A DNA stretch of 64,000 bases from Minisyncoccota bacterium. GTDB lineage: Bacteria; Patescibacteriota; Minisyncoccia; UBA6257; 2-01-FULL-56-20. The notes under the pieces were generated by a model, which was given only the letters and a program-made list of their open reading frames with translations, had not been told where the DNA came from and did no database searches. Shown here one piece after another: positions 6,155 through 52,423 of this stretch. The DNA is taken from positions 190,585 through 254,584 of the forward strand of contig JBAYLC010000001.1 in NCBI GenBank assembly GCA_041664245.1. Direction: 5' to 3'. Both the position numbers and the translations under genes were made by a program. Each line of letters starts with the position of its first letter. Position 1 is the stretch's first letter.

Positions 6155-6221
6155 ATTTTAGAACCTTCTTCCTTGGGACGACGAAATCCCGCACCAAAGG
6201 TTGTGGTGCGGGAAAAGGGAA

Positions 6222-6308
6222 ATGCGCGAAGCGGCCAAGGAATTGAACTTCGAATTAGCCGCAATTTTAAGAGACGAAATCCGTGTCTTGACAAAAAAAT
6301 TAAAATAA
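6222..6308 (+). CDS. 28-aa stand-alone UVR-domain micropeptide (paralog of UvrB C-terminus)
   Basis: MREAAKELNFELAAILRDEIRVLTKKLK versus UvrB tail [28 protein letters not shown]; not in ORF track (below 60 aa); SD-like GGAAAAGGGAA upstream. Confidence 0.5.
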   Translation: MREAAKELNFELAAILRDEIRVLTKKLK

Positions 6309-6329
6309 GATGGCTGCTTATCGTCAATA

Positions 6330-6358
6330 TTGACAAAATATTTCTAAGACGCTATAAT
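6330..6358 (+). promoter_or_regulatory. Consensus sigma70 promoter TTGACA-N17-TATAAT for the flotillin gene
   Basis: TTGACA 6330-6335, 17-nt spacer, TATAAT 6353-6358; AAGGAGG SD at 6428-6434; GTG start 6439. Confidence 0.7.
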
Positions 6359-6438
6359 ATCACCAGCAAAAAATTGAGTGTTTTGATTTCAAAACCATCA
6401 ATTCACTTAACCATTTTACAACCTAATAAGGAGGTCAG

Positions 6439-8853
6439 GTGTTACATCAGCCTGTGTCGCTTCTCTTTCCGGCAATCGGAATTGGAGCAGTGCTTTTTCT
6501 CATTGTGATCCTTAAGTCTTTTGTCATCGCAAAAGGCAATCAGATCATCACCCTTGAGAGACGTTGGTTCGGCGCGCAAATGCCGGACGGGCGTACGGTC
6601 GCTCTAAGCAACGAAGTTGGTCTCCAAGCTAGAGTGCTTGGACCGGGATTTCACTTTCTCATACCTTTTTTGTACAAAACGAAAAAGCATGATTTTCTAG
6701 TAATCTCAGCGAATCATGTCGGTATGGTGAGAGCAATCACCGGTGCGCCAATGCCATCAGGAAGTATCATGGCCAAACCGATTGACTGTGATTTATTTCA
6801 AGACGGCGAATTGTTTCTCCAGAACGGCGGCGAAAAGGGCCCTCAGCTCAGTATTCTCCCCGAGGGCGAATACAAAATCAACCCGCACTTATTTAGTATC
6901 GACATTGTCCAAGCTGTCATGATCGAAGACAGCGAAGTCGGTTACGTTGAATCAATTGCAGGAGAACCGGTCAAACGTGAAGGCGGCAATTTCGGTTCGC
7001 CAGTCGATTGCGACAATTTTCAGGATGCAGCAGCATTCATGAAAAATGGCGGGCAAAAAGGTCCTCAAATTTCCTTCCTTGTTCCCGGTCTCTATCGAGT
7101 CAATACGATCTTGTTCAAAGTGGAGAAGAAACCGATCACTGAGATACAAGGTGGTAAAGTCGGACTGATCGAAGCAACTGACGGCGCAAGAATTCCCGAA
7201 GGACGACTTCTCGCCAAAAGAGTGGAAGGCCACAATAACTTCAATGACGGCCAGGCGTTTATCGAAAAAGGTGGCGAGAAAGGTCGTCAGCTCGACGTTT
7301 TGATGCCGGGCAGATATCGTTTGAATCCAGCCCTATTCAGAGTCGTCGAAGTTGTCGACTGGACACATGTCCAGGCCGACGAAGTCGGTATTGTCACAAT
7401 CAACGAGGGGAAGCCAATCACGGATCCTTTGAAGATTGCGGCAGAAGAACTTCCGCTTGAGAAACACAACAACTTCCAAGACCCGCAGGCATTCATAACG
7501 GCGGGCGGACAAAAGGGATTGCAGATTCCAGTATTGCGTGCTGGTAATTATGCCATCAACCCATGGTTCGCCACCATCAAAAAAGTGCCGATGACCAAGG
7601 TGGCTATTGGCGAATGTGGTGTTGTCACAAGTTATGTCGGTGAGGACGGTGCTGACACAACAGATGAGGCCGTGAATGCCAAGATCGTCAAAAACGGATG
7701 CAGAGGTATCTGGGCAGAACCGTTGCAGCCCGGAATGCATCCGATCAATACGAGTATCTGCAAAGTTGACATCGTGCCTACCACGCAGATTCTGCTGAAT
7801 TGGGCGGATAATCGTTCGAGCGCGCATGAGCTCGACGAGAACCTGAAGACCATCACGCTACGAACCGCGGACGCATTCAGCGTGAATATGGACGTAAGCG
7901 TGATTATCCATATTCCCATGCAGAACGCGCCCAAGGTAATTGCCAATCTCGGATCAATGCAGAACATGATTTCTCAGGTCCTAGAACCGGCGATAAGTTC
8001 ACACTTCAGAAATGCCGCGCAGTACATCGAGGCGCTCGATCTGTACACTAAACGGAAAGAGCTTCAAGATGCCGCGAAAAAGCACATCGACGAAGTGTTG
8101 AAGACGCATCATATCGATTCACGTGATACTCTCATCGCGGACGTGGTATTGCCGATTGAACTCACTAAAACGGTTTCCGACCGGCAAATTGCGGAACAGG
8201 AGAAGAAAACCTACGGAGTGCAGAAGGAAGCTCAAAATACAAGAAGAGAGCTTGAGAACGCAACGGCGCAAGCCAATATGCAGACTGAAGTTGTGAAATC
8301 CGAGCGAAATGTTGAAATTGCGAGGAACGTCGCTGACGGAAAGGTGAATGAAGCCACAGGCGCAAGACAGGCAGCAATTTTACACGCGGAAGGCGCGGCC
8401 GAAGCGGTTAAGATCACTGCTGCCGCAAATGCAGAAGCAACGAAGGTGAACGCGGAAGCCAATGCCGAAGCAATCACTAAGGTTGGCAACGCCGAAGCAG
8501 AGGTTATTCTTGCTAAAGGAACATCAACTGCAAAAGCTTACGAGCTCGAAGTCAAGGCGATGGGCGAGAAGAACTTCGGCCAGATCCGTGTCGTCAACGC
8601 AATCGCCGAAAAGGGTGTAAAGCTGATACCGGACAATCTAGTCATTGGCGGCGGAGGCGGAAACGGAAGTGGCGATCTTATTGGCAGCTTCTTAGGACTT
8701 CGTCTTCTTGAGCAGCTGTCTGGTAAACCGTTCGCTGTCAGCGTTCCGAAAACTGACGAGGTGACCACTACGAAAGTAGACGAAGCCAGCGCTACGGGAA
8801 CCGACCTTAAAAAGGAAGGCCCCCAATCTGGTTCCGACAAGAAGAAATCGTAA
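6439..8853 (+). CDS. Flotillin-like SPFH/Band-7 protein with N-terminal tandem repeat expansion and EA-repeat coiled-coil tail
   Basis: N-terminal TM; SPFH start (GPGFHFLIPF); 4-5 repeats of NFQD..AF...GG.KG.Q...L.PG.Y..NP.LF; flotillin EA repeats (AEANAEAITKVGNAEAEVILAKG). Confidence 0.8.
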   Translation: MLHQPVSLLFPAIGIGAVLFLIVILKSFVIAKGNQIITLERRWFGAQMPDGRTVALSNEVGLQARVLGPGFHFLIPFLYKTKKHDFLVISANHVGMVRAITGAPMPSGSIMAKPIDCDLFQDGELFLQNGGEKGPQLSILPEGEYKINPHLFSIDIVQAVMIEDSEVGYVESIAGEPVKREGGNFGSPVDCDNFQDAAAFMKNGGQKGPQISFLVPGLYRVNTILFKVEKKPITEIQGGKVGLIEATDGARIPEGRLLAKRVEGHNNFNDGQAFIEKGGEKGRQLDVLMPGRYRLNPALFRVVEVVDWTHVQADEVGIVTINEGKPITDPLKIAAEELPLEKHNNFQDPQAFITAGGQKGLQIPVLRAGNYAINPWFATIKKVPMTKVAIGECGVVTSYVGEDGADTTDEAVNAKIVKNGCRGIWAEPLQPGMHPINTSICKVDIVPTTQILLNWADNRSSAHELDENLKTITLRTADAFSVNMDVSVIIHIPMQNAPKVIANLGSMQNMISQVLEPAISSHFRNAAQYIEALDLYTKRKELQDAAKKHIDEVLKTHHIDSRDTLIADVVLPIELTKTVSDRQIAEQEKKTYGVQKEAQNTRRELENATAQANMQTEVVKSERNVEIARNVADGKVNEATGARQAAILHAEGAAEAVKITAAANAEATKVNAEANAEAITKVGNAEAEVILAKGTSTAKAYELEVKAMGEKNFGQIRVVNAIAEKGVKLIPDNLVIGGGGGNGSGDLIGSFLGLRLLEQLSGKPFAVSVPKTDEVTTTKVDEASATGTDLKKEGPQSGSDKKKS

Positions 8854-8871
8854 TAATTTGTAACTTAGCAA

Positions 8872-8905
8872 CCCACCCTGTTGGATACAGGGTGGGCTTT
8901 TTTTT
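8872..8905 (+). terminator. Intrinsic terminator after flotillin gene
   Basis: CCCACCCTG-ttggata-CAGGGTGGG followed by T9. Confidence 0.8.
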
Positions 8906-9033
8906 GCCTTTTTAAAATCCTTACATTAAACTCTTCTGTATCTACCCCCTATAGGTCCAAGACTGGGGGCAGTTCTCGTATTCATATAAAACCATAATTC
9001 GTAATTCTTTATTCCTAATTCACGTTTAACAAA

Positions 9034-11553
9034 ATGAAAGACAAAATAATTATCAAAGGCGCCCGCGAGCATAATCTGAAAAATATTAATCTCGAAATTC
9101 CTCGCGATAAAATGATTGTTTTTACTGGGTTATCTGGTTCCGGAAAATCTTCGCTGGCTTTTGATACCATTTTCGCCGAAGGCCAACGCCGCTATATTGA
9201 ATCCCTTTCCGCCTACGCCCGGCAGTTTTTAGGCCGGCTCGATAAACCCGACGTCGATGAAATTGAAGGTCTCTCGCCGTCAATTTCTATTGATCAAAAA
9301 AGCCATTCGTCCAATCCTCGTTCCATCGTTGCGACCATCACGGAAATTTACGACTATCTCCGCGTTCTTTTCGCGCGGGTTGGCAAGCCGTTTTGCCCCA
9401 AGTGCGGCAAAGAAATCCGCCGAATGACCAATGAAGAGATTGTCGACGCTGCCATTGATTTTTCCAAAGCTCACAAAAATATTCGCGAAATTACAATTCT
9501 TGCGCCCGTGGTGCGGGGACGAAAAGGGGAGTATTACCAGATGCTTTACGATTTTCTAAACGCCGGTTTTTCGGAAGTTCGTTTAGATGGAGAATTCAAA
9601 TCGCTTCGCCATCGGATTGAACTAAGCCGTTATAAACAGCACACGATTGAATTAATCGTCGATAAAATTCCCGGCAATATGAATTTCAAGGAAAAAGATA
9701 ATCGGCTTCGCTTGGCCGAGGCCGTTGAATCAGCGCTTAAATACGGCCATGATGTTATCACGATTTTAATCGGCGGTGAAGAACTTTCCTTGTCTTCAAA
9801 ATTCGCCTGCCCCGAAGATAATTTTTCCTTTCCCGAAATCGAACCCCGCTTGTTTTCGTTTAATAGCCCCTATGGCGCTTGTCCGGAATGCCATGGATTA
9901 GGCACGGAAGATGTCTGGTCCGAAAAAATTTGTTTGCTCTGCCAAGGCAAGCGATTAAAAGAAGAAGCGCTTAACGTTTTAATAAAAAATAAAAATATTG
10001 TTTCCTTAACTGCTTTATCAATTTCCGAAGCGTTCGCTTTTTTCACCAAACTAGAAGAATCATCGGCCGATAAATTTATGGCCGTGGCCGAACTGCCGCT
10101 TCGGGAAATCAAAAGCCGTTTGAAGTTTATGATTGATGTCGGTCTTGATTATCTGACTCTCGATCGCAAGGCCGGAACGCTCTCGGGCGGCGAGGCGCAA
10201 AGAATTCGATTAGCTTCTCAAATCGGTTCTCGCTTGGTTGGCACTTTATATATTTTAGACGAACCGACGATTGGTCTTCATCAGCGCGATAACGCTAAAC
10301 TAATCAAAACTCTCCATGATCTCCGCGACATTGGCAACACAATTATCGTTGTTGAACACGACGAAGAAACTATTCGAGAATCAGATTATCTTGTTGATTT
10401 TGGACCCGCCGCCGGCGTTCACGGCGGCAAGATTGTTGCCCAAGGGCCGATCCCGGAAATTTTTAAAGACCCAAAGCAAAGTTCGCTTACTCTGGATTAT
10501 TTAAACGGCAAGAAGTCAATTCCTATTCCCGATGAACGCCGTAAAATCGGGAAAAATCAAGAATATTTAAAAATCAAAAGCGCCTTTGCTAATAATCTTC
10601 AAAACATTGATATTAACATTCCTCTCCGGCGTTTTACCGCCATCACCGGTGTTTCCGGTTCGGGTAAAAGTTCGCTCCTTTATGATGTCATCTATAAATC
10701 CCTTTCTGACGGTGTAAGTCGCGCCAGAAGCAAGCCAGAGGGCTGTAAAGGGGTTCTAGGCACGGAATACTTTAACCGCACGATAAATATTGACCAATCA
10801 GCAATCGGTCGCACTCCGCGCTCCAATCCGGCGACCTACGTCGGCGCTTGGACTCATGTTCGTGATCTTTTTGCCTCCACGCCTGATGCCCGAGTTCGCG
10901 GTTATAAACCCGGCCGATTTAGTTTTAATGTTCCCGGCGGGCGTTGTGAAAACTGCGAAGGCCACGGCACCATCGCCATTGAAATGCATTTTTTGCCGAC
11001 CGTTTATGTTGAATGCGATATTTGCCACGGCAAACGTTTTGATCGGGAAACATTAGAGGTTGAGTATAACGGAAAAAATATCCATGACGTTTTAAAAATG
11101 ACCGTCGAAGAGGCCGTGAAATTTTTCCGCGATATCCCGTGGCTTCACGAAAGATTAAATATTTTAGAAGAAGTCGGTCTTGGTTATCTTGAGCTCGGCC
11201 AATCCGCTACCACTCTTTCGGGCGGTGAAGCTCAAAGAGTTAAGCTCTCGGCCGAGCTTGGCAAGCGCGATACCCATCGCACGCTTTATCTTCTAGACGA
11301 ACCAACCACCGGCCTTCATTTCGGCGATATTCAAAAACTTCTGGAAGTTTTGAATCGTCTCGTGGAAAAAGGGAATACAGTTGTTTTAATTGAGCACAAC
11401 TTAGACGTTATTAAAACCGCCGACTGGGTAATTGACCTCGGTCCCGAAGGCGGAGTGAAAGGCGGCAAAATTATCGCCGAGGGAACGCCGGAAGAAATCG
11501 CCAGAAAGGCAAATAGTTTTACCGGCGAATATTTAAGAAAAGTTTTGAAGTAA
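9034..11553 (+). CDS. uvrA: Excinuclease ABC subunit A (UvrA), short form with reduced insertion domain
   Basis: Two ABC ATPase modules ([14 protein letters not shown]; [13 protein letters not shown]), zinc-finger cysteines, LSGGE signatures; 839 aa versus about 940 typical. Confidence 0.95.
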
Positions 11554-11685
11554 AACTTTTTATTGGTAAAAAAGAATTCATAAATCTTTATTCTTAAATC
11601 ATAAATCGATTTTATCTTGTATGTTATAATACAAAAGCGCGAAAATTGAATTAGAAAAGGCCGAATTAATATATAAAACAACAAC

Positions 11686-11871
11686 ATGGACCAAGAAATT
11701 GTTAAGCAAAAAATGAGTGTTCTAATGAATGCCTGTCCGTGTAGTTCGGGAAAGATGTTCTTTGCCTGTTGCGGCAAAGAAAAAGCTATGGAAATTTCCA
11801 GCGAAATTTGCCCGTGCGGTTCTGGGAGTATGGTCAAAGATTGCTGTATGAAAAGTCCCGAAAGCCATTAG
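11686..11871 (+). CDS. Small protein composed of two SEC-C zinc-binding motifs (YchJ/SecA C-terminus-like)
   Basis: CPCSSGKMFFACCG and CPCGSGSMVKDCCM match SEC-C motif CPCGSGKKYKxCxG twice; 61 aa. Confidence 0.7.
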   Translation: MDQEIVKQKMSVLMNACPCSSGKMFFACCGKEKAMEISSEICPCGSGSMVKDCCMKSPESH

Positions 11872-11894
11872 TTTTTGACAGGTTGATTTCTAAG

Positions 11895-11922
11895 CCGCGG
11901 CTTCCAATGGCTGCGGTTTTTG
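11895..11922 (+). terminator. Intrinsic terminator after SEC-C gene
   Basis: CCGCGGC-ttccaatg-GCTGCGG then TTTTTGTTTAT. Confidence 0.55.
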
Positions 11923-11940
11923 TTTATATTAAGCACGAAA

Positions 11941-13158
11941 ATGACTAAAGAAATATTTTACAAAAACTTACCCCTTACCCCCGGCGTTTATTTAATGAAA
12001 AATAAAAAAGGGGAGATTATCTACGTTGGCAAGGCTGGCAATTTAAAGCGTCGAGTTTCAAGCTATTTTCAGCGCGCCGGTGACTGGAAAACCGAAAAAC
12101 TAGTCAACGAAATAAAGAAAATTGATTATCGGAAAACCGACACCGCGCTTGAAGCGCTCATTCTAGAAGCCGATCTAATCAAAAAATATCAACCAAAATA
12201 TAACGTCTTGGAAAAAGATGACCGCAGTTTTTTGTATGTTGTCATTACTAAAGAAGAATTTCCCCGTTTAGTTCTTGCCCGCGGAAAAGACATAAAAAGC
12301 GAAAAAGATAAATATTCAAAAATCTACGGCCCATTTGTCTCCGCGCGAAGCGTCCGCGAAGCTCTAAAAATTATCCGCCGGATTTTTCCGTGGAATACTC
12401 ATGACGAAAATTTTTTAAAACAGAGTAATAATCGCCCTTGTTTTGATTTTCAAATCGGCAATTGTCCCGGTGTTTGTGTCGGTGAGATCAGTAAAAAAGA
12501 TTACCAAAAAACCGTGAAACAAATTGAACTATTTTTTGCCGGTAAAAAGAAAAAAATTATTCAAGCTCTAAATAAAGAAATGAAAATAAAAAGTAGGGGA
12601 TTAGAATTTGAAGCCGCCGAAAAAATCCACCGGCAAATTTTCGGCCTCCAACATATCAACGACATCGCTTTCATCAACGAAAATCAAGCTCCCCATTCTC
12701 CATTCTACATTCTCCATTCCACCCGTATTGAGGGCTACGATATCTCCAATATTTCTGGCACCTCCGCCGTCGGCTCAATGGTTGTTTTTTCTAATAACAA
12801 ACCCGATAAAAATGAATATCGAAAATTCAAAATTAAAACCGTAAAAGGCGCCAATGATGTTGGTATGTTAAAAGAAGTTTTAACTCGCCGATTTAAAAAT
12901 AACTGGCCGCAACCGCAATTGATTCTAATTGATGGGGGAGTGGGACAGATAAACTCTGCCCGAAAAGTTTTGAAAGAATTTAATCTTAAAATTCCCATGC
13001 TTGGCATCGTCAAAGGCCCGCAAAGAAAAAACAATTTCATAATTGGCAATATTCCTAGTTGGACCGATAGAAAAACCTTAATTCAAATTCGCGACGAAGC
13101 CCACCGTTTTGCAATCAGTTACCATAAAAATCTAAGATCCAAACAAAGTTTGACTTAA
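11941..13158 (+). CDS. uvrC: Excinuclease ABC subunit C (UvrC), lacking C-terminal (HhH)2 domain
   Basis: GIY-YIG (GVYLMKNKKGEIIYVGKAGNLKRRVSSYF), UVR domain, RNase-H-like EndoV domain ending ...IRDEAHRFAISYH; ORF track start 11920 overlaps terminator so ATG 11941 preferred. Confidence 0.9.
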   Translation: MTKEIFYKNLPLTPGVYLMKNKKGEIIYVGKAGNLKRRVSSYFQRAGDWKTEKLVNEIKKIDYRKTDTALEALILEADLIKKYQPKYNVLEKDDRSFLYVVITKEEFPRLVLARGKDIKSEKDKYSKIYGPFVSARSVREALKIIRRIFPWNTHDENFLKQSNNRPCFDFQIGNCPGVCVGEISKKDYQKTVKQIELFFAGKKKKIIQALNKEMKIKSRGLEFEAAEKIHRQIFGLQHINDIAFINENQAPHSPFYILHSTRIEGYDISNISGTSAVGSMVVFSNNKPDKNEYRKFKIKTVKGANDVGMLKEVLTRRFKNNWPQPQLILIDGGVGQINSARKVLKEFNLKIPMLGIVKGPQRKNNFIIGNIPSWTDRKTLIQIRDEAHRFAISYHKNLRSKQSLT

Positions 13159-32516: not shown

Positions 32517-33227
32517 ATGCCTAAATTAGTTTTTGATATTGAAACCATAGGTGAAAATTTTGATGAATTAGATAAAGCCACTCAAGAATCCCTGACCCGC
32601 TGGCTTAAAAAGGAATCATTAAGCGATGAGGAATATAACTTTGCCTTAAACGAATTAAAGGATGGCCTGGGTTTTTCGCCTCTAACCGGAGAAATCGTCG
32701 CTATCGGCGTTCTTGATGTGGAAAAAAATCAAGGCGTTGTTTACTTCCAATCTCCTGATAAAAAAGCAGAAGAATGGACTGACGATAATTTTAAATTCAA
32801 ACCAATGAGTGAAAAAGAGATGCTCGAAAGTTTTTGGCAAGGCGCCAAAAATTATGATGAGTTTATCAGTTTCAATGGCCGGGCTTTTGACGTTCCATTT
32901 TTAGCAACCCGCTCCGCGGTTCACGAAATTCGCCCTACTAAAGATTTAATGGAAGGTCGGTATTTGTATCAACAGCGAAATTGCCGCCATATCGACCTCT
33001 TAGACCAGCTTTCATTCTACGGTGCCGTTTATCACCGAAAAGGTAATCTCCACCTCTGGAGCCGCGCTTTTGGAATTAAAAGCCCTAAGGCCGATGGTGT
33101 TACAGGCGATGATGTTAGCCGTTTATTTAAAGAGAAGAAATATAAAGAAATCGCCATTTATAATGTTGGTGATCTCGTTGCCACCAAAGAACTTTACCAT
33201 CGGTGGGAGAAGTATATTCGATTTTAA
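32517..33227 (+). CDS. RNase-H-fold 3'-5' exonuclease (PolB-exo-like, DNA_pol_B_exo2 family)
   Basis: Exo I FDIET, Exo II FNGRAFDVPFL, Exo III YNVGDLVATKELY. Confidence 0.7.
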   Translation: MPKLVFDIETIGENFDELDKATQESLTRWLKKESLSDEEYNFALNELKDGLGFSPLTGEIVAIGVLDVEKNQGVVYFQSPDKKAEEWTDDNFKFKPMSEKEMLESFWQGAKNYDEFISFNGRAFDVPFLATRSAVHEIRPTKDLMEGRYLYQQRNCRHIDLLDQLSFYGAVYHRKGNLHLWSRAFGIKSPKADGVTGDDVSRLFKEKKYKEIAIYNVGDLVATKELYHRWEKYIRF

Positions 33228-33233
33228 AATTTA

Positions 33234-36206
33234 ATGACCTCCGAAAAATTTGAAATTCTCCTTAGCCAATTAAATAAAAAGCAACGGGAAGCCGTTGAAA
33301 CAATTGAGGGTCCGGTTATGGTTATCGCCGGTCCCGGCACTGGTAAAACTCAAATCCTAACTGTCCGGATCGCTAATATTTTAGAAAAAACCGACACCGC
33401 CGCCGATTCTATTTTAGCTCTTACCTTTACTGAAGCCGCGGCTGCTAATATGCGCTCCCGTCTCGTTTCTTTAATTGGAAGCCGGGGCTATTACGTGAAT
33501 ATTTCCACCTTTCACGGTTTTTGCAATCGTTTAATCCAAGGTTACCCGGAGCACTTTGACGAGATCATCGGCCGAAAAAATGCCAACGAAGTTGACCGTA
33601 TTTCTGTTATTCGCAAAATAATTGAAGAAAATGAGTTTAAAAATCTCAAACCTTTCGGCGATAATTTTTTTCACGTCCGGGATATTCTTAGTGCTATTCG
33701 CGACCTTAAAAACGAAGGCTTAGATTACCAGGAATTCGAAAAATTGATGGGAGAAGAAAAAAGTAATTTTGAAAAAAATGATGATCTTTATTATGAGCAA
33801 GGCGCCCACAAGGGAAAAATGAAAGGAGTGTATCAAAAACAACTTAAACAAATTGAAAAAAATTCCGAGCTATCCAAAATTTACTTCGCCTATCAGAAGG
33901 AATTAGAACAGAGGCGGCTCTATGATTTTGAAGATATGATTTTGAAAACCATCGAGGCCTTAGAAAAAAAAGAGGATTTTCTACTAGAAATTCAAGAAAG
34001 ATATCAATATTTGCTAGTTGATGAGCATCAAGACACAAACGGCGCTCAAAACCGAGTCCTAGAGCTCCTCGCCAGTTTTTACCCGAATCCCAATCTTTTT
34101 GTTGTTGGAGATGAAAAGCAAGCGATTTTCCGCTTTCAAGGTGCTAGCTTGGATAATTTTTTGTATTTTCAAAAAAAATATCCGGCTGTAAAACTTATTA
34201 ACTTAGAAGAAAATTATCGTTCGCCGCAAAGTATTCTTGATTCCGCCCAAAGTTTAATTGAGAAAAATCAAGCGACAATTTTCGCGCCTCTGAAATCTCG
34301 AACGTCACTTGGCGGCCAAAAAATTAAAATTTTAAACTTTTCCCAGCCCGAAGCTGAATTGCTTTTTATCTCGGAAAAAATTCGGGAAAAATTAGAAGCT
34401 GGAACCCCGCCTAACGAAATCGCCATTCTTTACCGGGAAAATCGCGATGTTTTTTCGATTGCCGATTTTCTTAGTAAAAAAGGAATTTCTTACGTTATCG
34501 AATCGGATTTAAACATTCTTGATGATTCCGAGATAAAAAAACTAAATCGGCTTTTGATTGCGGTTAATGATTTTGGCAATGATGAAAAATTAATTTCCGC
34601 TCTCCATATCGATTTTCTGAATATCGATCCACTTGATATCTACGCTTTAATTCAAAAATCTAAAGACGATAAAAAATCGATTCATCGCCTAATTGCCCAA
34701 TCAAAAGATATTACCGACCTAGAAAACGCCGGAACGATTATTTCCGCCTACAATAATATTCGTGACTGGCAACAAAAAAGTAAAAATGAAAATTTCCTTG
34801 AGTTTTTCGAAAGAGTTGTCAGGGAATCGGGACTTTTTGCTCAACTGTTAAAAAACGAGCGCTTTCAAAAATTAGAAAAATTAGGAACCCTATTTAATGA
34901 AATCAGAAAAATCGTTCAGAATCACCGGGATTTTAGTTTAAGAAACTATATCGAATATTTGGAAATTTTAGAAAGCCACGGAGTTTCAATTACCGGCCGT
35001 TCCGCCCGCAATGCCAAGGCTATCCGTTTAATGACCGCCCATCGAGCGAAAGGATTAGAATTTGATTTTGTTTTTATTATTGGTGCCTCTGATGGCCATT
35101 GGGGCAATCGGCGGGAATTCGGCGGATTTAGTTTGCCAATCAAAACCAGTATTGATATAAGTAAAATCGAAAAAAACGAGGACGAACGCCGGCTTTTCTA
35201 TATGGCGATGACCCGCGCCAAAAAATCGGTCTACATTACCTGGAGCCGCCATTCACCAGATGGCCGAGAGCAAGTACCCAGCCAATTTATAAATGAAATT
35301 AAAGAAGAACTTAAAGAAGAAGTAGATGATAAAGAATTTGGAGAAAAAATAACTAAAAACCAAAATCTTCTTTTTAACAAACGAGTTAATGAAGAGCCAA
35401 CATTAAAAAACGCGGAGTATGTAAAAGATATTTTTGAGAAGAGGGGATTGTCAGTAACCGCGCTTAATAACTACCTTAAGTGCCCGTGGCGGTATTTTTA
35501 TCTCAATTTAGTTCGGATTCCGAAAGCCAAAAGCAAGCATCAAATTTTTGGCACCGCCGTCCATTTCGCGCTTAAAAATTTCTTTGATGAAAAAAGAAAA
35601 GGCAATAATATTGATAGTAAATTTCTATTAGAAAGATTTCGCCAGAATCTAGAACGGGAGCCGCTAAATGAAAATGAATTTTTGGAAATCTATAAAAAAG
35701 GCGAGAGCTTCTTGCCAAAATATTTCGATTTCTATAAAAATATTTGGAATTACAATACTATAAATGAATTTAAAATTAGCGGCGTTCATTTAGCGGATAA
35801 CATAAAACTCGTCGGCAATCTGGATAAACTGGAAATTCAGGATAATCCCACTCATGTTATTGTGGTCGATTATAAAACCAAAAAACCAGAGAGTCGAAAT
35901 TCGATTGAAGGCGGAACAAAACTTGGCACTGGCGACTATAAAAGACAACTGGTTTTATATAAAATTCTTTTAGATTTAAAACCGGAAAAAACCTGGAGTA
36001 TGGATGCCGGTGTAATTGATTTCATCGAACCGAACGAGCGGGGAATTTTTAAAAAGGAAGTCTTTGAAATAACTTCTGCCGAAACTGAAGAGTTAAAGGA
36101 AACAATCAAAAAAATCGCGGGCGAGATTGTCAATTTAAGCTTTTGGTCCAACCGCTGTAGTGACAAAAAATGTGAATATTGCGCTTTGCGTAACCTAATG
36201 GAATGA
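33234..36206 (+). CDS. UvrD/PcrA-family SF1 helicase fused to C-terminal PD-(D/E)xK Cas4/AddB-like Fe-S nuclease domain
   Basis: Walker A AGPGTGKTQILT, UvrD motifs; C-terminal KCPWRYFY, VVDYKT (RecB motif III), C-x4-C-x2-C cysteine cluster. Confidence 0.85.
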   Translation: MTSEKFEILLSQLNKKQREAVETIEGPVMVIAGPGTGKTQILTVRIANILEKTDTAADSILALTFTEAAAANMRSRLVSLIGSRGYYVNISTFHGFCNRLIQGYPEHFDEIIGRKNANEVDRISVIRKIIEENEFKNLKPFGDNFFHVRDILSAIRDLKNEGLDYQEFEKLMGEEKSNFEKNDDLYYEQGAHKGKMKGVYQKQLKQIEKNSELSKIYFAYQKELEQRRLYDFEDMILKTIEALEKKEDFLLEIQERYQYLLVDEHQDTNGAQNRVLELLASFYPNPNLFVVGDEKQAIFRFQGASLDNFLYFQKKYPAVKLINLEENYRSPQSILDSAQSLIEKNQATIFAPLKSRTSLGGQKIKILNFSQPEAELLFISEKIREKLEAGTPPNEIAILYRENRDVFSIADFLSKKGISYVIESDLNILDDSEIKKLNRLLIAVNDFGNDEKLISALHIDFLNIDPLDIYALIQKSKDDKKSIHRLIAQSKDITDLENAGTIISAYNNIRDWQQKSKNENFLEFFERVVRESGLFAQLLKNERFQKLEKLGTLFNEIRKIVQNHRDFSLRNYIEYLEILESHGVSITGRSARNAKAIRLMTAHRAKGLEFDFVFIIGASDGHWGNRREFGGFSLPIKTSIDISKIEKNEDERRLFYMAMTRAKKSVYITWSRHSPDGREQVPSQFINEIKEELKEEVDDKEFGEKITKNQNLLFNKRVNEEPTLKNAEYVKDIFEKRGLSVTALNNYLKCPWRYFYLNLVRIPKAKSKHQIFGTAVHFALKNFFDEKRKGNNIDSKFLLERFRQNLEREPLNENEFLEIYKKGESFLPKYFDFYKNIWNYNTINEFKISGVHLADNIKLVGNLDKLEIQDNPTHVIVVDYKTKKPESRNSIEGGTKLGTGDYKRQLVLYKILLDLKPEKTWSMDAGVIDFIEPNERGIFKKEVFEITSAETEELKETIKKIAGEIVNLSFWSNRCSDKKCEYCALRNLME

Positions 36207-36501: not shown

Positions 36502-36550
36502 AAAGCCGCGACAAAATTAATTGCCGCAGCCGAGTTTTCGTTCGTCGTTA

Positions 36551-36721
36551 CTAGTTGTCGATGTTTTTAACAATATACATCGCAAACACCAGAGCGCAAA
36601 GTGCGCAACCGACACCAAATCCGATCAAATAACTGCGAGTCGCCAAGCCAAACATAGTGCCAGAGGCAGCTGTAAACCCGAGAAAAAGAAAAACATCACT
36701 AGACTTAATCTTAACTTTCAT
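36551..36721 (-). CDS. Small membrane protein (56 aa, hypothetical)
   Basis: GGAGGA SD 4 nt upstream of ATG, two TM-like segments (MKVKIKSSDVFLFLGFTAASGTMFGLATRSYLIGFGVGCALCALVFAMYIVKNIDN); unlisted; replaces + strand ORF 36521..36745. Confidence 0.45.
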   Translation of the reverse strand: MKVKIKSSDVFLFLGFTAASGTMFGLATRSYLIGFGVGCALCALVFAMYIVKNIDN

Positions 36722-36841
36722 AAATCCTCCAGAGTTTCAAACTAAAGCTTCTTTACAGATTATACACCTAATATTATACTTTGTCAAGATTATGCATTAG
36801 AGCTTGATACCTAATACACGACACTTGATACACAACAAACC

Positions 36842-41841: not shown

Positions 41842-42444
41842 CTAATTCCTTCTTAGAAGCGCCTCACCGAGCGTTTCTTCGTCCGCAAATTCAATCTCTC
41901 CGCCGGTTGGGAGTCCTCTTCCTAAGCGGCTTATTTTTTTCGCCAGTGGTTTTAGTTCTTGATTAATCAAAGAAGCGTTAAAATCTCCATTACCAGTAGG
42001 ATTGAAAGCTAAAATGATTTCCTCGGCCTGTCCCTTTAGCTCTTTTTGAATAATTATTTTCAAGTGTTCAATTCTGATTTTTTGAGTATCGCTTAGCATT
42101 CCGGTTCTAGCCACCGGACCGATGATAAGATAAGTTCCTATAAACTTCCGAGTATTTTCAATCGAAATTAAATCGGTCTCTTTCTCCACTATTGCGACTA
42201 TATCTTTCCGACGGCTGGAATCTCCGCAAATATCGCAAAGCTCACCGGCATTTTGATGGATAAAAAAACAACGGTGGCACAGTTTTATTTTTTGCAAATT
42301 ATTTATATTAGTCGCCAAAGAATGGATCGAAGTCTTCTTTTGGTTTATTAAATAAAAAGCCAACCGGGTGGCTTGTCGCGGCCCTATTGAGGGCAACTCG
42401 GATAATTGTTCAATAACTTTCTTAATCGGCTCCGGTAAGTTCAT
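41842..42444 (-). CDS. recR: Recombination protein RecR
   Basis: C4 zinc finger (CHRC...CDIC), Toprim domain. Confidence 0.92.
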   Translation of the reverse strand: MNLPEPIKKVIEQLSELPSIGPRQATRLAFYLINQKKTSIHSLATNINNLQKIKLCHRCFFIHQNAGELCDICGDSSRRKDIVAIVEKETDLISIENTRKFIGTYLIIGPVARTGMLSDTQKIRIEHLKIIIQKELKGQAEEIILAFNPTGNGDFNASLINQELKPLAKKISRLGRGLPTGGEIEFADEETLGEALLRRN

Positions 42445-42513
42445 AAACTAATTCTAGCTTAATATCCAAAAATTCATAAATCATTATTCCTGAATCTTAA
42501 ATCATAATACGCA

Positions 42514-43884
42514 TTACATCTCTCCCGCCGGCGCATCGCCAAACCTATCTTCAATCTCATGAAAACAAACTCTCTCCGAATCAAATTTGAATTTAACGGT
42601 TCCTAAGGGGCCGTTTCGATGTTTCGCTACAATAATTTGGGCGACATTTTGCTCTTCGAGTGGCGCTTCGATATCAGTTCGATCCTTATCCTTTCGGTAG
42701 ATAAATAAAACCACGTCGCTATCTTGTTCAATACTTCCCGATTCGCGCAAGTCCGAAAGCCGTGGCTGTTTATGGTCTCTCTGGTCAACCGCGCGGGAAA
42801 GCTGGGATAAAGCTAAGACCGGTACTTTGAGTTCTCGAGCCAGCGCTTTTAGTCCTCTCGAAATTTCTGTCACCTGATTAACCATGTTGTCCGATTTTGT
42901 TCTTGGTTGAATCAATTGGAGGTAATCAACAACGATTAATCCGAGTCCGTGTTCGATCTGCAATCGCCTTGCCATCGCCCGCATCTGTAAAAGTGTTGGG
43001 GAAGGTGTATCATCAATAAAAAGCGGCGCTTTTGAAAGCCGATCGAGCGCATATTGAATCATCTCGAATTCCATATCATCAGAAATTCTTCCCGTCCTAA
43101 GCTTCCAAAGCGAAACCTGCGACTCAGAGGAAATTAAGCGGTCAATCACTTGTTCGCGGGACATTTCGATTGAAAAGTATCCAACCGGTATGCCGGCTTT
43201 AAGCGAGGCGTAACGGGCAATATCTAATGAGAATGCTGTCTTGCCAAGCGAAGGGCGCGCGCCGATAATAATTAAATCTGATTTTTGTAGTCCAGAAAGA
43301 AGATTGTCGATTCCCTTGAATCCCGTCGGCACGCCTCGAATCGCGCCATCGCCTTGATGCAGCCGCTCAATTCGCTCGTAAGCGGTTTTTAATTCATCTT
43401 TAATATGAACAAAATTTTGAGGCGTTGATTTTTGGGAAATCGCAAAAATTTTCTGCTCGATACTATCAAGCAAATCTTCAACTTCATCCGTACCGCCAAA
43501 AACATCTTCGGTAATTTCGGCTGAAGCTTTTATTAAATCTCGCAAAGTCTTTTTCTCTTTTACAATCTTGGCGTAATTTTCAATATGCGCCGATGTCGGC
43601 ACTTGATTGGTCAAATCAGCGATATAGCTAGAGCCGCCAACTTCCTGAAGCAGGTTGGCTTCTTTTAATCGGCTAGTCACGCTCAAAATATCAATTGGCT
43701 GCCGTTTCTCAAAAAGTTCTAAAATTATTTGAAAAATTTTCTCGTGGGCGGGAAGATAAAAATCGCTAGGTGTTATCAAGTCGGCAACTTTAATAATTGA
43801 ATCCTTATCAATTAAAATAGCGCCCAAAACGGATTGTTCGGCGTCGGTATTATTCGGCGGAACTTTTAATGATTGTTTACTCAT
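42514..43884 (-). CDS. dnaB: Replicative DNA helicase DnaB
   Basis: N-terminal DnaB domain, Walker A GARPSLGKTAF, RecA-like fold. Confidence 0.95.
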   Translation of the reverse strand: MSKQSLKVPPNNTDAEQSVLGAILIDKDSIIKVADLITPSDFYLPAHEKIFQIILELFEKRQPIDILSVTSRLKEANLLQEVGGSSYIADLTNQVPTSAHIENYAKIVKEKKTLRDLIKASAEITEDVFGGTDEVEDLLDSIEQKIFAISQKSTPQNFVHIKDELKTAYERIERLHQGDGAIRGVPTGFKGIDNLLSGLQKSDLIIIGARPSLGKTAFSLDIARYASLKAGIPVGYFSIEMSREQVIDRLISSESQVSLWKLRTGRISDDMEFEMIQYALDRLSKAPLFIDDTPSPTLLQMRAMARRLQIEHGLGLIVVDYLQLIQPRTKSDNMVNQVTEISRGLKALARELKVPVLALSQLSRAVDQRDHKQPRLSDLRESGSIEQDSDVVLFIYRKDKDRTDIEAPLEEQNVAQIIVAKHRNGPLGTVKFKFDSERVCFHEIEDRFGDAPAGEM

Positions 43885-52282: not shown

Positions 52283-52349
52283 GCGTTAATAAATAATAAT
52301 CTTGATAGATATATAGTACTGCACTGAGCGAGGGAAGCGAGCCGAAATG

Positions 52350-52423
52350 TGCGCCCACTAGGATTTGAACCTAGGACCATCTCCTTAAAAGGGAGCTGCT
52401 CTACCAGACTGAGCTATGGGCGC
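52350..52423 (-). tRNA. tRNA-Lys (anticodon UUU)
   Basis: Cloverleaf: acceptor GCGCCCA/TGGGCGC, D-arm GCTC-AGTCTGGTA-GAGC, anticodon loop CTTTTAA, T-arm CTAGG-TTCAAAT-CCTAG; no encoded CCA. Confidence 0.9.

What the first reader, a model, noticed from the sequence alone, without database searches (positions are those of the whole stretch)
32517..36206. Two-gene DNA-end processing module: DEDD exonuclease plus helicase/Cas4-like Fe-S nuclease fusion
A 236-aa PolB-exo-like 3'-5' exonuclease (FDIET / FNGRAFD / YNVGD) is followed 7 nt later by a 990-aa UvrD-type helicase. The helicase C-terminus carries a RecB-family PD-(D/E)xK nuclease with Cas4/AddB-style cysteines (KCPWRYF ... CSDKKCEYC). It is a single-polypeptide AddA/AdnB-like resection enzyme with a dedicated 3'-5' exonuclease partner. 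This could be a minimal RecBCD/AddAB substitute or a defence-related nuclease-helicase.
Basis: partly seen in the sequence, partly recalled or inferred. Interest (0 to 1): 0.5.

Follow-up and report, generated by a model that had tools for sequence, protein, structure and literature searches.

The report
Exonuclease next to helicase-nuclease gene
Two real DNA-maintenance genes of an ultrasmall (Patescibacteria) bacterium, a stand-alone proofreading-type exonuclease and a UvrD-type helicase fused to an iron-sulfur nuclease, lie side by side here, but in most relatives they are not neighbours, so they are two ordinary known-type genes and not a dedicated two-gene machine.

Summary
There is a 236-aa DEDDy exonuclease at 32517-33227 and a 990-aa helicase-nuclease at 33234-36206, separated by 6 nt on the same strand. 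The first is PF10108/COG3298 with a PolB/Pol-epsilon exonuclease fold. The second is a UvrD/PcrA-type SF1A helicase with a C-terminal PD-(D/E)xK nuclease and four invariant cysteines. The nuclease fold is closest to the Fe-S nucleases of AdnA and AddB.

The window comes from a Candidatus Paceibacterota MAG and the surroundings are housekeeping genes.

The "module" reading fails its own refutation test:
- 0 of 15 exonuclease loci from other Patescibacteria have the helicase within 6 kb.
- 2 of 41 informative helicase loci have the exonuclease nearby, against 0.4-0.9 expected by chance.
- Linkage holds mainly in the window's own clade, where it is eroded by inserted genes.
- No exonuclease-helicase fusions were seen.

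The UvrD-Cas4-like fusion architecture was already described (Hudaiberdiev 2017). A protein of the same architecture in Southlakia epibionticum is a non-essential core gene. Its Tn-seq fitness defect resembles those of recA and recF.

Most likely this is a single-chain recombination-repair helicase-nuclease next to an independent, very conserved 3'-5' exonuclease. Both are new members of known kinds, and the interest is modest.

The parts
32517..33227 (+). Stand-alone DEDDy 3'-5' exonuclease, 236 aa, family PF10108/COG3298 (also PF13482). PGAP name: 'ribonuclease H-like domain-containing protein', MFA6354298.1.
   Evidence: ORF; Pfam. The AF2 model has pLDDT 89.3. Foldseek's best matches are the Pol epsilon and archaeal PolB exonuclease domains, E 4e-10, TMq 0.62. 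Exact-sequence look-up.
32532..32546 (+). Exo I motif FDIET (D7, E9)
   Evidence: Invariant in 30 homologues; position.
32871..32891 (+). Exo II motif FNGRAFD (N120, F124, D125)
   Evidence: Invariant in 30 homologues; position.
33159..33173 (+). Exo III motif YNVGD (Y215, D219), which makes this the DEDDy subtype
   Evidence: Invariant in 30 homologues; position.
33234..36206 (+). UvrD/PcrA-type SF1A helicase fused to a C-terminal Fe-S PD-(D/E)xK nuclease, 990 aa. PGAP name: 'ATP-dependent DNA helicase', MFA6354299.1.
33270..35249 (+). SF1A motor (residues 13-672). It carries Walker A GPGTGKT (33), DEHQD (263), FRFQGA (299), NYRS (327), TAHRAKGLEF (601) and MTRAK (659).
   Evidence: Pfam UvrD-helicase 13-317 and UvrD_C 322-672. 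The best PDB sequence matches are PcrA 1pjr at 2.7e-78 and UvrD 2is1 at 5e-61. Motifs are conserved in 121 sequences and positions come.
35448..36194 (+). RecB-family PD-(D/E)xK nuclease domain (residues 739-987), Cas4/AddB/AdnA type
   Evidence: Pfam PDDEXK_1 1e-23. The AF2 model has pLDDT 92.7. Foldseek matches: AdnA nuclease E 5e-8 with TMq 0.61-0.63, then RecE, AddB, Cas4 SSO0001, ACE1, Exo5 and MGME1.
35823..35876 (+). Catalytic core: GNLDKLE (D864, E867) through VVDYK (D879, K881). The QxxxY motif (Q905, Y909) follows at 35946-35960.
   Evidence: Invariant or nearly invariant columns in alignment A1 and in 121 sequences; positions.
35481..35483 (+). Cys750, the first predicted Fe-S ligand (motif LNNYLxCPW)
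   Evidence: 100% conserved and invariant in A1.
36156..36182 (+). Cys975-x4-Cys980-x2-Cys983, the C-terminal predicted Fe-S ligands
   Evidence: 99% conserved and invariant in A1. The spacing between the first two cysteines varies in some homologues.

Best explanation
These are two separate, vertically inherited housekeeping genes of a Candidatus Paceibacterota (Patescibacteria/CPR) genome. They sit next to each other through lineage-specific synteny in a compact, co-directional gene string (TGT, exonuclease, helicase-nuclease, glutaredoxin).

Gene 1 is an active stand-alone PolB/Pol-epsilon-type DEDDy 3'-5' exonuclease of the uncharacterised PF10108/COG3298 family. By inference it trims 3' ends of DNA. 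Its unusually slow evolution suggests a constrained core role.

Gene 2 is a member of the already described UvrD-Cas4-like fusion architecture. It has a catalytically intact PcrA/UvrD-like SF1A motor. By inference from the family, that motor translocates 3'-to-5' on one strand and unwinds duplex DNA. The motor is tethered to an Fe-S PD-(D/E)xK nuclease of the AdnA/AddB type. By inference from the closest structures, that nuclease cuts the unwound strand, plausibly the displaced 5' strand, leaving a 3' tail for RecA.

The protein works without an AddB- or AdnA-like partner gene. It most likely serves recombinational repair and end processing in a lineage that lacks RecBCD, AddAB and AdnAB.

Shown here: the genes, domains, folds, conserved active sites, the lack of pair conservation, and the housekeeping context. 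Inferred: strand polarity, which strand is cut, Fe-S occupancy, and the pathway.
For: Identity of the genes:
- Pfam and NCBIfam hits; PDB sequence matches.
- AF2 models with Foldseek matches and 61/65.
- Conserved catalytic residues and four conserved cysteines.

Source organism: both exact sequences are in a Candidatus Paceibacterota MAG on a 286,926-bp contig. Homologues are overwhelmingly from Patescibacteria.

Not a conserved pair:
- 0 of 15 exonuclease loci have the helicase within 6 kb.
- Among 78 non-redundant helicase loci, 41 have at least 800 nt upstream, and only L063 and L035 carry the exonuclease. Chance expectation is 0.4-0.9.
- In the window's own clade the linkage decays with divergence. 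It is adjacent at 94% helicase identity (L024). One ORF intervenes at 60% (L022). RmuC intervenes at 56% (L023). Three genes intervene at 55% (L017). It is absent within 6 kb at 60% (L016).
- No neighbour of the helicase is conserved, and there is no adjacent paralogue.
- The top 150 exonuclease cluster representatives are all 93-326 aa, so no helicase fusions are seen.

Housekeeping context: uvrB, uvrA, uvrC, recR, dnaB, enolase, TGT, PGI and others are in the window.

Known architecture: UvrD-Cas4-like fusions form the largest, monophyletic branch of pfam12705 (PMC5704561).

Function:
- Southlakia epibionticum SEML1_0364 has the same architecture (1093 aa; PF00580, PF13361, PF12705). It is flagged a core family.
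- Its Tn-seq calls are NE/NE/GD, with reads falling 8081, 1516, 361. This parallels recA (790, 264, 43) and recF (1618, 574, 206).
- It is the only PF12705 protein listed in that genome. Searches of the held supplement text for RecC, MutS and MutL returned nothing (PMC10633639 Tables S1/S2).
Against: The 6-nt spacing with no intervening terminator means the two genes are very probably co-transcribed here, along with TGT. The same tight adjacency reappears in a distant helicase lineage (L063, 1-nt gap, helicase 48% identical). A second, paralogous DEDDy exonuclease family lies near the helicase in another clade. A loose functional link therefore cannot be excluded.

No biochemistry exists for either family. 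Which strand the nuclease cuts, and whether the cysteines bind an Fe-S cluster, are both inferred.

Orthology of SEML1_0364 with the window protein rests on shared architecture and phylum. It was not tested with an alignment.

Absence of RecBCD/AddAB was seen only in a supplementary table for one Saccharibacterium. It was not checked in the genome that this window comes from.
Confidence: 0.6

Rival explanations
1. This is a genuine two-gene end-processing module. The helicase-nuclease unwinds and cuts one strand, and the DEDDy exonuclease degrades the 3'-ended strand. Together they would act as a minimal RecBCD/AddAB analogue.
For: - The genes are 6 nt apart on the same strand with no terminator between them.
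- The same arrangement occurs in the 94%-identical relative L024 and in the distant L063.
- There is loose linkage (1-5 kb) in L022, L023, L017 and L035.
- A paralogous PF13482/PF10108 exonuclease ('exo2') lies 0-3 kb downstream of the helicase in another clade (L046, L047, L049, L073, L091, L081).
- Such partnerships have precedent. COG2251 proteins fuse a PF13482 exonuclease, a Cas4-like nuclease and helicase-type AAA domains (PMC3985635).
Against: - 0 of 15 exonuclease loci and 39 of 41 informative helicase loci show no linkage, and the observed count is about the chance level.
- Linked loci are phylogenetically clustered, so they represent few independent events.
- Evolutionary rates differ sharply: the exonuclease is 72% identical where the helicase is 56%.
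- No fusion proteins appear among the top 150 exonuclease representatives.
- The S. epibionticum annotation tables list the helicase-nuclease but no PF10108 or PF13482 protein.
Confidence: 0.2
2. The 990-aa protein is simply this lineage's PcrA/UvrD orthologue. It would remove the excised strand in UvrABC nucleotide excision repair and act as a replication and anti-RecA accessory helicase, and the appended nuclease would merely degrade the displaced oligonucleotide or strand.
For: The best sequence matches are PcrA and UvrD. Public annotations call homologues 'DNA helicase II / PcrA'. uvrA, uvrB and uvrC are in the same window and no other UvrD-family gene is present in these 64 kb.
Against: Scores are far below the equivalog cut-offs: PcrA 357 against 911 and UvrD 291 against 1144. 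S. epibionticum has a separate 700-aa UvrD-domain protein, SEML1_0668, besides the fusion. The nuclease active site and the four cysteines are as conserved as the motor, which argues for a core role and not an accessory one. This reading is not exclusive of the best explanation.
Confidence: 0.25
3. The pair, or the helicase-nuclease alone, is an anti-phage defence component of the Gabija type or of the UvrD-Cas4 type seen next to restriction-modification or BREX systems.
For: PADLOC GajB models hit the motor at up to 4.7e-85. UvrD-Cas4 fusions in other phyla sit next to type III restriction-modification and Dcm-Vsr genes (PMC5704561). A Hymenobacter plasmid encodes a 1065-aa fusion beside a BREX-1 system, with 25% identity in the nuclease domain.
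Against: The GajB hits are generic UvrD-helicase matches. No GajA/OLD, restriction-modification or BREX gene is nearby in the window or in about 70 related loci. The neighbours are enolase, TGT, glutaredoxin and PGI. The family is widespread, apparently single-copy and syntenic in Patescibacteria, and is flagged a core family in S. epibionticum. The Tn-seq phenotype without phage resembles those of recA and recF.
Confidence: 0.06

Closest known systems
UvrD-Cas4-like helicase-nuclease fusions (pfam12705 branch; Hudaiberdiev et al. 2017, PMC5704561)
   Same: Both are one polypeptide with an N-terminal UvrD-like SF1 helicase and a C-terminal pfam12705 Cas4-like nuclease. Both are stand-alone or sit in non-conserved contexts. 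Both were predicted to act like the RecB/AddB nucleases in recombination.
   Different: The published contexts are mostly defence-linked (type III restriction-modification, Dcm-Vsr) and occur in genomes that also encode RecB. Here the context is housekeeping, in a reduced genome. Membership of the same monophyletic branch was not tested.
Mycobacterial AdnAB (AdnA subunit)
   Same: The nuclease domain is the closest solved structure: 6ppr_A and 9np6_A, E 5e-8, TMq 0.61-0.63. AdnA also has a UvrD-like N-terminal domain plus a C-terminal Fe-S RecB-family nuclease in one chain.
   Different: AdnAB is an obligate heterodimer of two adjacent paralogues. AdnA's motor-like domain is not the driving motor (PMC13000450). 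Here there is one gene, all motor motifs are intact, no paralogue is nearby, and sequence similarity to AdnA and AdnB is weak.
Bacillus AddAB (AddB Fe-S nuclease; AddA motor-nuclease)
   Same: Both combine an SF1A motor with RecB-family nuclease logic. The four-cysteine arrangement has one cysteine N-terminal and three C-terminal in the nuclease domain, as in AddB. Foldseek hits AddB at 4e-6.
   Different: AddA scores 125 bits against a 708 cut-off. No AddB gene is present. The cysteine spacing is C-x4-C-x2-C, whereas the AddB/Cas4 pattern is C-x2-C-x5-C (the latter from my own knowledge). No Chi-recognition domain is evident.
PcrA / UvrD / Rep (SF1A helicases)
   Same: These are the best sequence and motif matches for residues 1-710.
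   Different: They have no nuclease domain. The equivalog cut-offs are not reached.
[quoted passage not shown]
   Same: The exonuclease is a clear member, at 71 bits against a cut-off of 24. It has the DEDDy triad motifs and a PolB/Pol-epsilon exonuclease fold.
   Different: Nothing material differs. The family itself is uncharacterised (PMC3985635).
Bacillus MrfA/MrfB (YprA helicase plus YprB DEDD exonuclease); recalled from my own knowledge, not tested here
   Same: It is a repair helicase encoded next to a PF13482-type 3'-5' exonuclease.
   Different: MrfA is an SF2 DExH helicase with a DUF1998 domain, not a UvrD-type helicase, and has no fused nuclease. That pair is conserved, whereas this one is not.

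Membership tests
UvrD/PcrA/Rep SF1A helicase superfamily | UvrD-helicase and UvrD_C domains above Pfam gathering scores, with intact Walker A/B and motifs III-VI | tested here: met
   222.5 bits against 23 and 148.2 against 25.6. The motifs are conserved in 121 sequences.
PcrA or UvrD orthologue (NCBIfam equivalogs TIGR01073, TIGR01075) | Score at or above the curated equivalog cut-off | tested here: not met
   356.7 against 911.2 for PcrA and 290.8 against 1144.45 for UvrD.
AddAB / RecBCD | AddA or RecB equivalog score | tested here: not met
   AddA 124.9 against 707.65 and RecB 168.4 against 696.05.
AddAB / AdnAB | A second subunit gene (AddB or AdnA/AdnB paralogue) adjacent | tested here: not met
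   There is no paralogue in the 64-kb window. No conserved neighbour or second helicase-nuclease is seen in about 70 related loci.
RecB-family PD-(D/E)xK nuclease (PF12705) | Pfam score above cut-off, D...(D/E)xK and QxxxY residues, and a restriction-endonuclease-like fold | tested here: met
   85 bits against 22. D864, D879, K881, Q905 and Y909 are invariant. Foldseek matches AdnA, RecE, AddB, Cas4 and Exo5.
Cas4 proper (TIGR00372) | Equivalog cut-off | tested here: not met
   40 bits against 65. No cas genes or CRISPR array were seen among the annotated neighbours.
Fe-S ('iron staple') nucleases: AddB, AdnA, Cas4, Dna2, Exo5 | Four conserved cysteines, one N-terminal and three C-terminal in the nuclease domain | tested here: met
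   C750, C975, C980 and C983 are 99-100% conserved.
Fe-S ('iron staple') nucleases: AddB, AdnA, Cas4, Dna2, Exo5 | Actual binding of an Fe-S cluster | not testable with these tools
   This needs UV-visible or EPR spectroscopy on purified protein.
UvrD-Cas4-like fusion branch (Hudaiberdiev 2017) | UvrD-like helicase and pfam12705 nuclease in one polypeptide | tested here: met
   description of the branch.
UvrD-Cas4-like fusion branch (Hudaiberdiev 2017) | Falls inside the published monophyletic clade | not tested
A Hymenobacter plasmid fusion is only 25% identical in the nuclease domain.
Gabija (GajA/GajB) | GajB-type UvrD helicase encoded next to a GajA OLD-family ATPase-Toprim nuclease | tested here: not met
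   The GajB profiles hit the motor. The neighbours are TGT, the exonuclease and glutaredoxin.
PF10108/COG3298 PolB-exo-like exonuclease | Pfam score above cut-off, Exo I/II/III DEDDy residues, and a PolB exonuclease fold | tested here: met
   71.4 bits against 24. D7, E9, N120, D125, Y215 and D219 are invariant. Foldseek matches Pol epsilon and PolB exonuclease domains.
Conserved two-gene operon (exonuclease plus helicase-nuclease) | Adjacency conserved across the taxonomic range of both families | tested here: not met
   0 of 15; 2 of 41 against 0.4-0.9 expected by chance; the linkage is clade-restricted.

The most novel reading that the evidence does not exclude
The Patescibacteria UvrD/Fe-S-nuclease fusion may be a self-sufficient, single-chain (or homodimeric) double-strand-break resection machine. 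It would combine an active SF1A motor with an AdnA/AddB-type nuclease that cuts the 5' strand, an arrangement like the presumed ancestor of the AdnAB and AddAB heterodimers. In some lineages it would recruit a PolB-type DEDDy exonuclease (exo1 or exo2) to trim the 3' strand. That would explain the recurrent, independent juxtapositions of these genes.
Probability: 0.15. Interest if true: 0.55.

Novelty: new member of a known kind. Interest (0 to 1): 0.3.

Why it matters
Patescibacteria (CPR) make up a large share of bacterial diversity and have stripped-down DNA repair. If this one protein covers the end-resection role that RecBCD, AddAB or AdnAB play elsewhere, it would be the simplest known bacterial resection enzyme. 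It would also be a convenient model for how motor and Fe-S nuclease cooperate. At present that is inference from domains plus one Tn-seq data set in a related class. The exonuclease is of separate interest: it is one of the slowest-evolving proteins in these genomes and has no assigned function. As a 'two-gene module' the finding does not hold up.

Tried and rejected
- **Conserved operon:** rejected on the locus surveys.
- **Rosetta-stone fusions of the exonuclease to helicases:** none among the best 150 representatives of 1.84 billion clusters; all are 93-326 aa.
- **Defence system:** PADLOC gives only generic GajB hits. PHROGs gives generic helicase and exonuclease families plus 'DNA polymerase exonuclease subunit' phrog_403 for the exonuclease. 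Matches in plasmids and phages are few and distant, at about 25% identity.
- **Sequence-profile search of the nuclease domain against PDB:** only a marginal AdnA hit, E 0.045. The fold search was needed to place the domain.
- **A second paralogue or AddB-like gene in the window:** none.
- **RNA elements or tRNAs around the locus:** only tRNA-Lys at 52349-52423.
- **Literature on CPR proofreading, DnaQ, or CPR helicase-nucleases:** nothing specific found.
- **Technical failures:** The afdb50 fold library was unavailable.
- **Not achievable:** a whole-genome check for a canonical PcrA/UvrD, DnaQ or RecBCD in the source genome, because only 64 kb and flanks of 10 kb or less are accessible.

Full report
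**1. What is there**

The window carries two co-directional ORFs. One is 32517-33227 (236 aa) and the other is 33234-36206 (990 aa), separated by 6 nt. TGT ends 19 nt upstream of the first ORF, and a glutaredoxin gene starts 58 nt downstream of the second. No plus-strand terminator-like site separates TGT, the exonuclease and the helicase. Both exact protein sequences are on record from a Candidatus Paceibacterota MAG on a 286,926-bp contig. PGAP names them 'ribonuclease H-like domain-containing protein' and 'ATP-dependent DNA helicase'.

The rest of the window is ordinary housekeeping for a CPR genome. It holds uvrB, uvrA, uvrC, PPDK, enolase, VKOR, TGT, PGI, a ROK kinase, recR, dnaB, cysS, corA, dnaK/dnaJ, secDF and one tRNA.

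**2. The exonuclease**

- Pfam places it in DNA_pol_B_exo2 (PF10108, 1.1e-19) and RNase_H_2 (PF13482, 7.8e-15).
- The nearest solved sequences are Pol epsilon exonuclease domains, E 0.002.
- An AF2 model (pLDDT 89.3) matches Pol epsilon and archaeal PolB exonuclease domains by Foldseek, E 4e-10, TMq about 0.62.
- The Exo I (D7, E9), Exo II (N120, F124, D125) and Exo III (Y215, D219) residues are invariant in 30 homologues down to 42% identity. It is therefore an intact DEDDy 3'-5' exonuclease.
- The family (COG3298) is listed only as a predicted exonuclease cluster next to PolB exonucleases (PMC3985635). I found no functional study.
- It evolves very slowly. It is 72% identical where the neighbouring TGT is 41% and the helicase 56%. 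It stays 55-75% identical across Wolfe-, Doudna-, Falkow- and some Saccharibacteria.
- In a library clustered at 50% identity only 111 clusters reach E 1e-30. The best 150 are all 93-326 aa, which means stand-alone proteins with no helicase fusions.

**3. The helicase-nuclease**

Residues 13-672 are a UvrD/PcrA-type SF1A motor (UvrD-helicase 1.1e-65, UvrD_C 5.5e-43). The closest sequences are PcrA (1pjr, 2.7e-78) and UvrD. AddA, AdnB and RecB are much more distant, at 56-72 bits. The protein stays far below the NCBIfam equivalog cut-offs for PcrA, UvrD, Rep, AddA and RecB. All motor motifs are conserved in 121 sequences.

Residues 739-987 are PDDEXK_1, 1e-23. An AF2 model of this domain (pLDDT 92.7) is closest to the AdnA nuclease domain, E 5e-8, TMq 0.61-0.63. 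It is followed by RecE, AddB, Cas4 SSO0001, ACE1, Exo5 and MGME1. D864, D879, K881, Q905 and Y909 are invariant, and so are Cys750, Cys975, Cys980 and Cys983.

AdnA's nuclease domain carries the Fe-S cluster and cuts the displaced 5' strand, whereas AdnB's motor drives translocation (PMC13000450). The window protein thus joins an intact PcrA/UvrD-like motor to a nuclease of the type that AdnAB and AddAB place on the subunit without the driving motor.

**4. Is it a two-gene module?**

*Starting from the exonuclease.* Fifteen loci from other Patescibacteria genomes (exonuclease 40-75% identical) have no helicase-nuclease within about 6 kb on either side. Their neighbours are heterogeneous.

*Starting from the helicase, close relatives:*

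| Locus | Helicase identity | Arrangement |
|---|---|---|
| L024 | 94% | same arrangement and synteny as the window |
| L022 | 60% | a 200-aa ORF lies between the two genes |
| L023 | 56% | an antisense RmuC lies between |
| L017 | 55% | an ABC transporter, an Exo_endo_phos gene and RmuC lie between |
| L016 | 60% | no exonuclease within 6 kb |
| L019-L021 | 48% | no exonuclease within 6 kb |

*Starting from the helicase, metagenome loci.* A profile of the nuclease domain retrieved 80 metagenome loci, of which 78 are non-redundant.
- 41 of the 78 have at least 800 nt upstream of the helicase.
- Only L063 (1-nt gap) and L035 (1.2 kb away) contain the exonuclease.
- With 514 kb of flanking sequence in total and genomes of 0.6-1.2 Mb, chance predicts 0.4-0.9 such loci. 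P(2 or more) is 0.07-0.21.

*Other tests.* No neighbour of the helicase is conserved; the most frequent are Obg in 11 loci and a DsbA-like gene in 8. A rough NJ tree puts the linked loci in one clade, with L035 in the neighbouring clade and L063 as a clear outlier.

*The residual signal.* Linkage recurs at L063. A second, distantly related PF13482/PF10108 exonuclease of about 190 aa ('exo2') lies 0-3 kb downstream, antisense, of the helicase in another clade. This is suggestive but phylogenetically clustered. I give a genuine functional partnership about 0.2.

**5. What is already known**

Hudaiberdiev et al. 2017 described fusions of a Cas4-like pfam12705 nuclease to a UvrD-like helicase as the largest branch of that family. 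They reported the branch as monophyletic and as stand-alone or next to type III restriction-modification or Dcm-Vsr genes. They predicted that it acts like the RecB/AddB nucleases (PMC5704561). A Hymenobacter plasmid encodes such a fusion beside BREX-1 and umuDC.

In Patescibacteria the context is not defence-like. PADLOC gave only generic GajB/UvrD hits, with no GajA partner nearby.

**6. Functional evidence from a relative**

In the Tn-seq study of the Saccharibacterium Southlakia epibionticum (PMC10633639, Tables S1/S2), SEML1_0364 is 1093 aa with PF00580, PF13361 and PF12705 (residues 826-1056). ECOD assigns it to AddB chain B. It is flagged a core family.

| Gene | HMM calls (P0/P1/P2) | Normalised reads (T0, T1, T2) |
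|---|---|---|
| SEML1_0364 (fusion) | NE/NE/GD | 8081, 1516, 361 |
| recA | NE/NE/GD | 790, 264, 43 |
| recF | NE/NE/GD | 1618, 574, 206 |

SEML1_0364 is the only PF12705 protein listed in that genome. Searches of the held supplement text for RecC, MutS and MutL returned nothing, and 'subunit epsilon' matched only the ATP synthase. A separate 700-aa UvrD-domain protein, SEML1_0668, is non-essential. No PF10108 or PF13482 protein is listed.

This fits a recombination-repair role for the fusion. It argues against the fusion being the essential PcrA, and against an obligate exonuclease partner. One caveat applies: orthology with the window protein was inferred from architecture and phylum and was not tested with an alignment.

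**7. Most likely mechanism**

*Shown:* an intact SF1A motor, an intact RecB-family nuclease, four conserved cysteines, no partner gene, and a housekeeping context.

*Inferred:* the motor tracks 3'-to-5' on one strand and unwinds DNA from an end or a gap. The tethered AdnA/AddB-like Fe-S nuclease cuts unwound DNA, plausibly the displaced 5' strand, giving a 3' tail for RecA, which RecFOR would load (recR is in the window).

It may also cover UvrD-type duties in UvrABC repair, since no other UvrD gene is present in these 64 kb. The exonuclease is best treated as an independent 3'-end-processing enzyme whose role is unknown.

**8. Verdict**

The 'dedicated two-gene module' is not supported, and the defence reading is unlikely. 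Both genes are new members of known, though biochemically uncharacterised, kinds. The interest is modest.

Noticed in passing
window 32517-33227; loci L001-L015, L017, L022-L024, L035, L063: The PF10108 exonuclease is one of the slowest-evolving proteins in these genomes. It is 72% identical where TGT is 41% and the helicase 56%, and 55-75% identical across several Patescibacteria classes. Only 111 clusters at 50% identity reach E 1e-30. PHROGs matches a phage 'DNA polymerase exonuclease subunit' family (phrog_403, 4.8e-13). A core role, for example trans-acting proofreading in genomes without DnaQ, is conceivable but untested.
   Followed up: partly
L046:4612-5187 (-); also L047, L049, L073, L091, L081-L083: A second DEDDy exonuclease family of about 190 aa ('exo2'; PF13482 6e-11, PF10108 9e-6) lies 0-3 kb downstream of the helicase-nuclease on the opposite strand in another Patescibacteria clade. 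It has no homologue in the window.
   Followed up: partly
L023:4877-5917 (-); L017:4143-5945: In relatives with 55-56% identical helicases, an RmuC gene lies between the exonuclease and the helicase-nuclease. In L017 there is also an Exo_endo_phos (ExoIII/AP-endonuclease family) gene. This gives a loose DNA-repair neighbourhood.
   Followed up: no
window 4106-13158: The nucleotide excision repair genes are clustered: uvrB (4106-6154), uvrA (9034-11553, 839 aa) and a short uvrC (11920-13158, 412 aa). An 804-aa SPFH/Band-7 protein (6439-8853) is inserted between uvrB and uvrA.
   Followed up: no
window 36504-36787 (-): The 340-nt gap after the glutaredoxin gene holds a 56-aa hydrophobic ORF on the minus strand (36551-36721). 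It is framed by a perfect 12/12 sigma-70-type promoter match (36787-36759) and an 11-bp-stem terminator (36531-36504). A 51-aa gene is called at the equivalent place in L024.
   Followed up: partly
window 41842-43884 (-): recR (41842-42444) and dnaB (42514-43884) lie about 6 kb downstream of the locus on the opposite strand. recR synteny is shared with L024.
   Followed up: no
L015:6001-6709: The exonuclease homologue in a Candidatus Tagabacteria MAG is split over three reading frames (HSPs at 6001-6255, 6240-6491 and 6485-6709). This is either a pseudogene or indel errors in the assembly.
   Followed up: no
L105 (Hymenobacter plasmid NZ_CP095057.1) 4670-7867: A 1065-aa 'ATP-dependent DNA helicase' carries a related C-terminal nuclease domain (25% identity). 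It sits between a BREX-1 system (brxL, pglZ, pglX) and umuD plus a Y-family polymerase gene. This is an example of the defence and mobile context reported for UvrD-Cas4 fusions outside Patescibacteria.
   Followed up: partly
L016:4300-5931: In Parcubacteria bacterium Gr01-1014_20 the gene directly upstream of the helicase-nuclease is a 543-aa HATPase_c_3 (GHKL ATPase) protein. No MutL-specific domains were detected in it.
   Followed up: no
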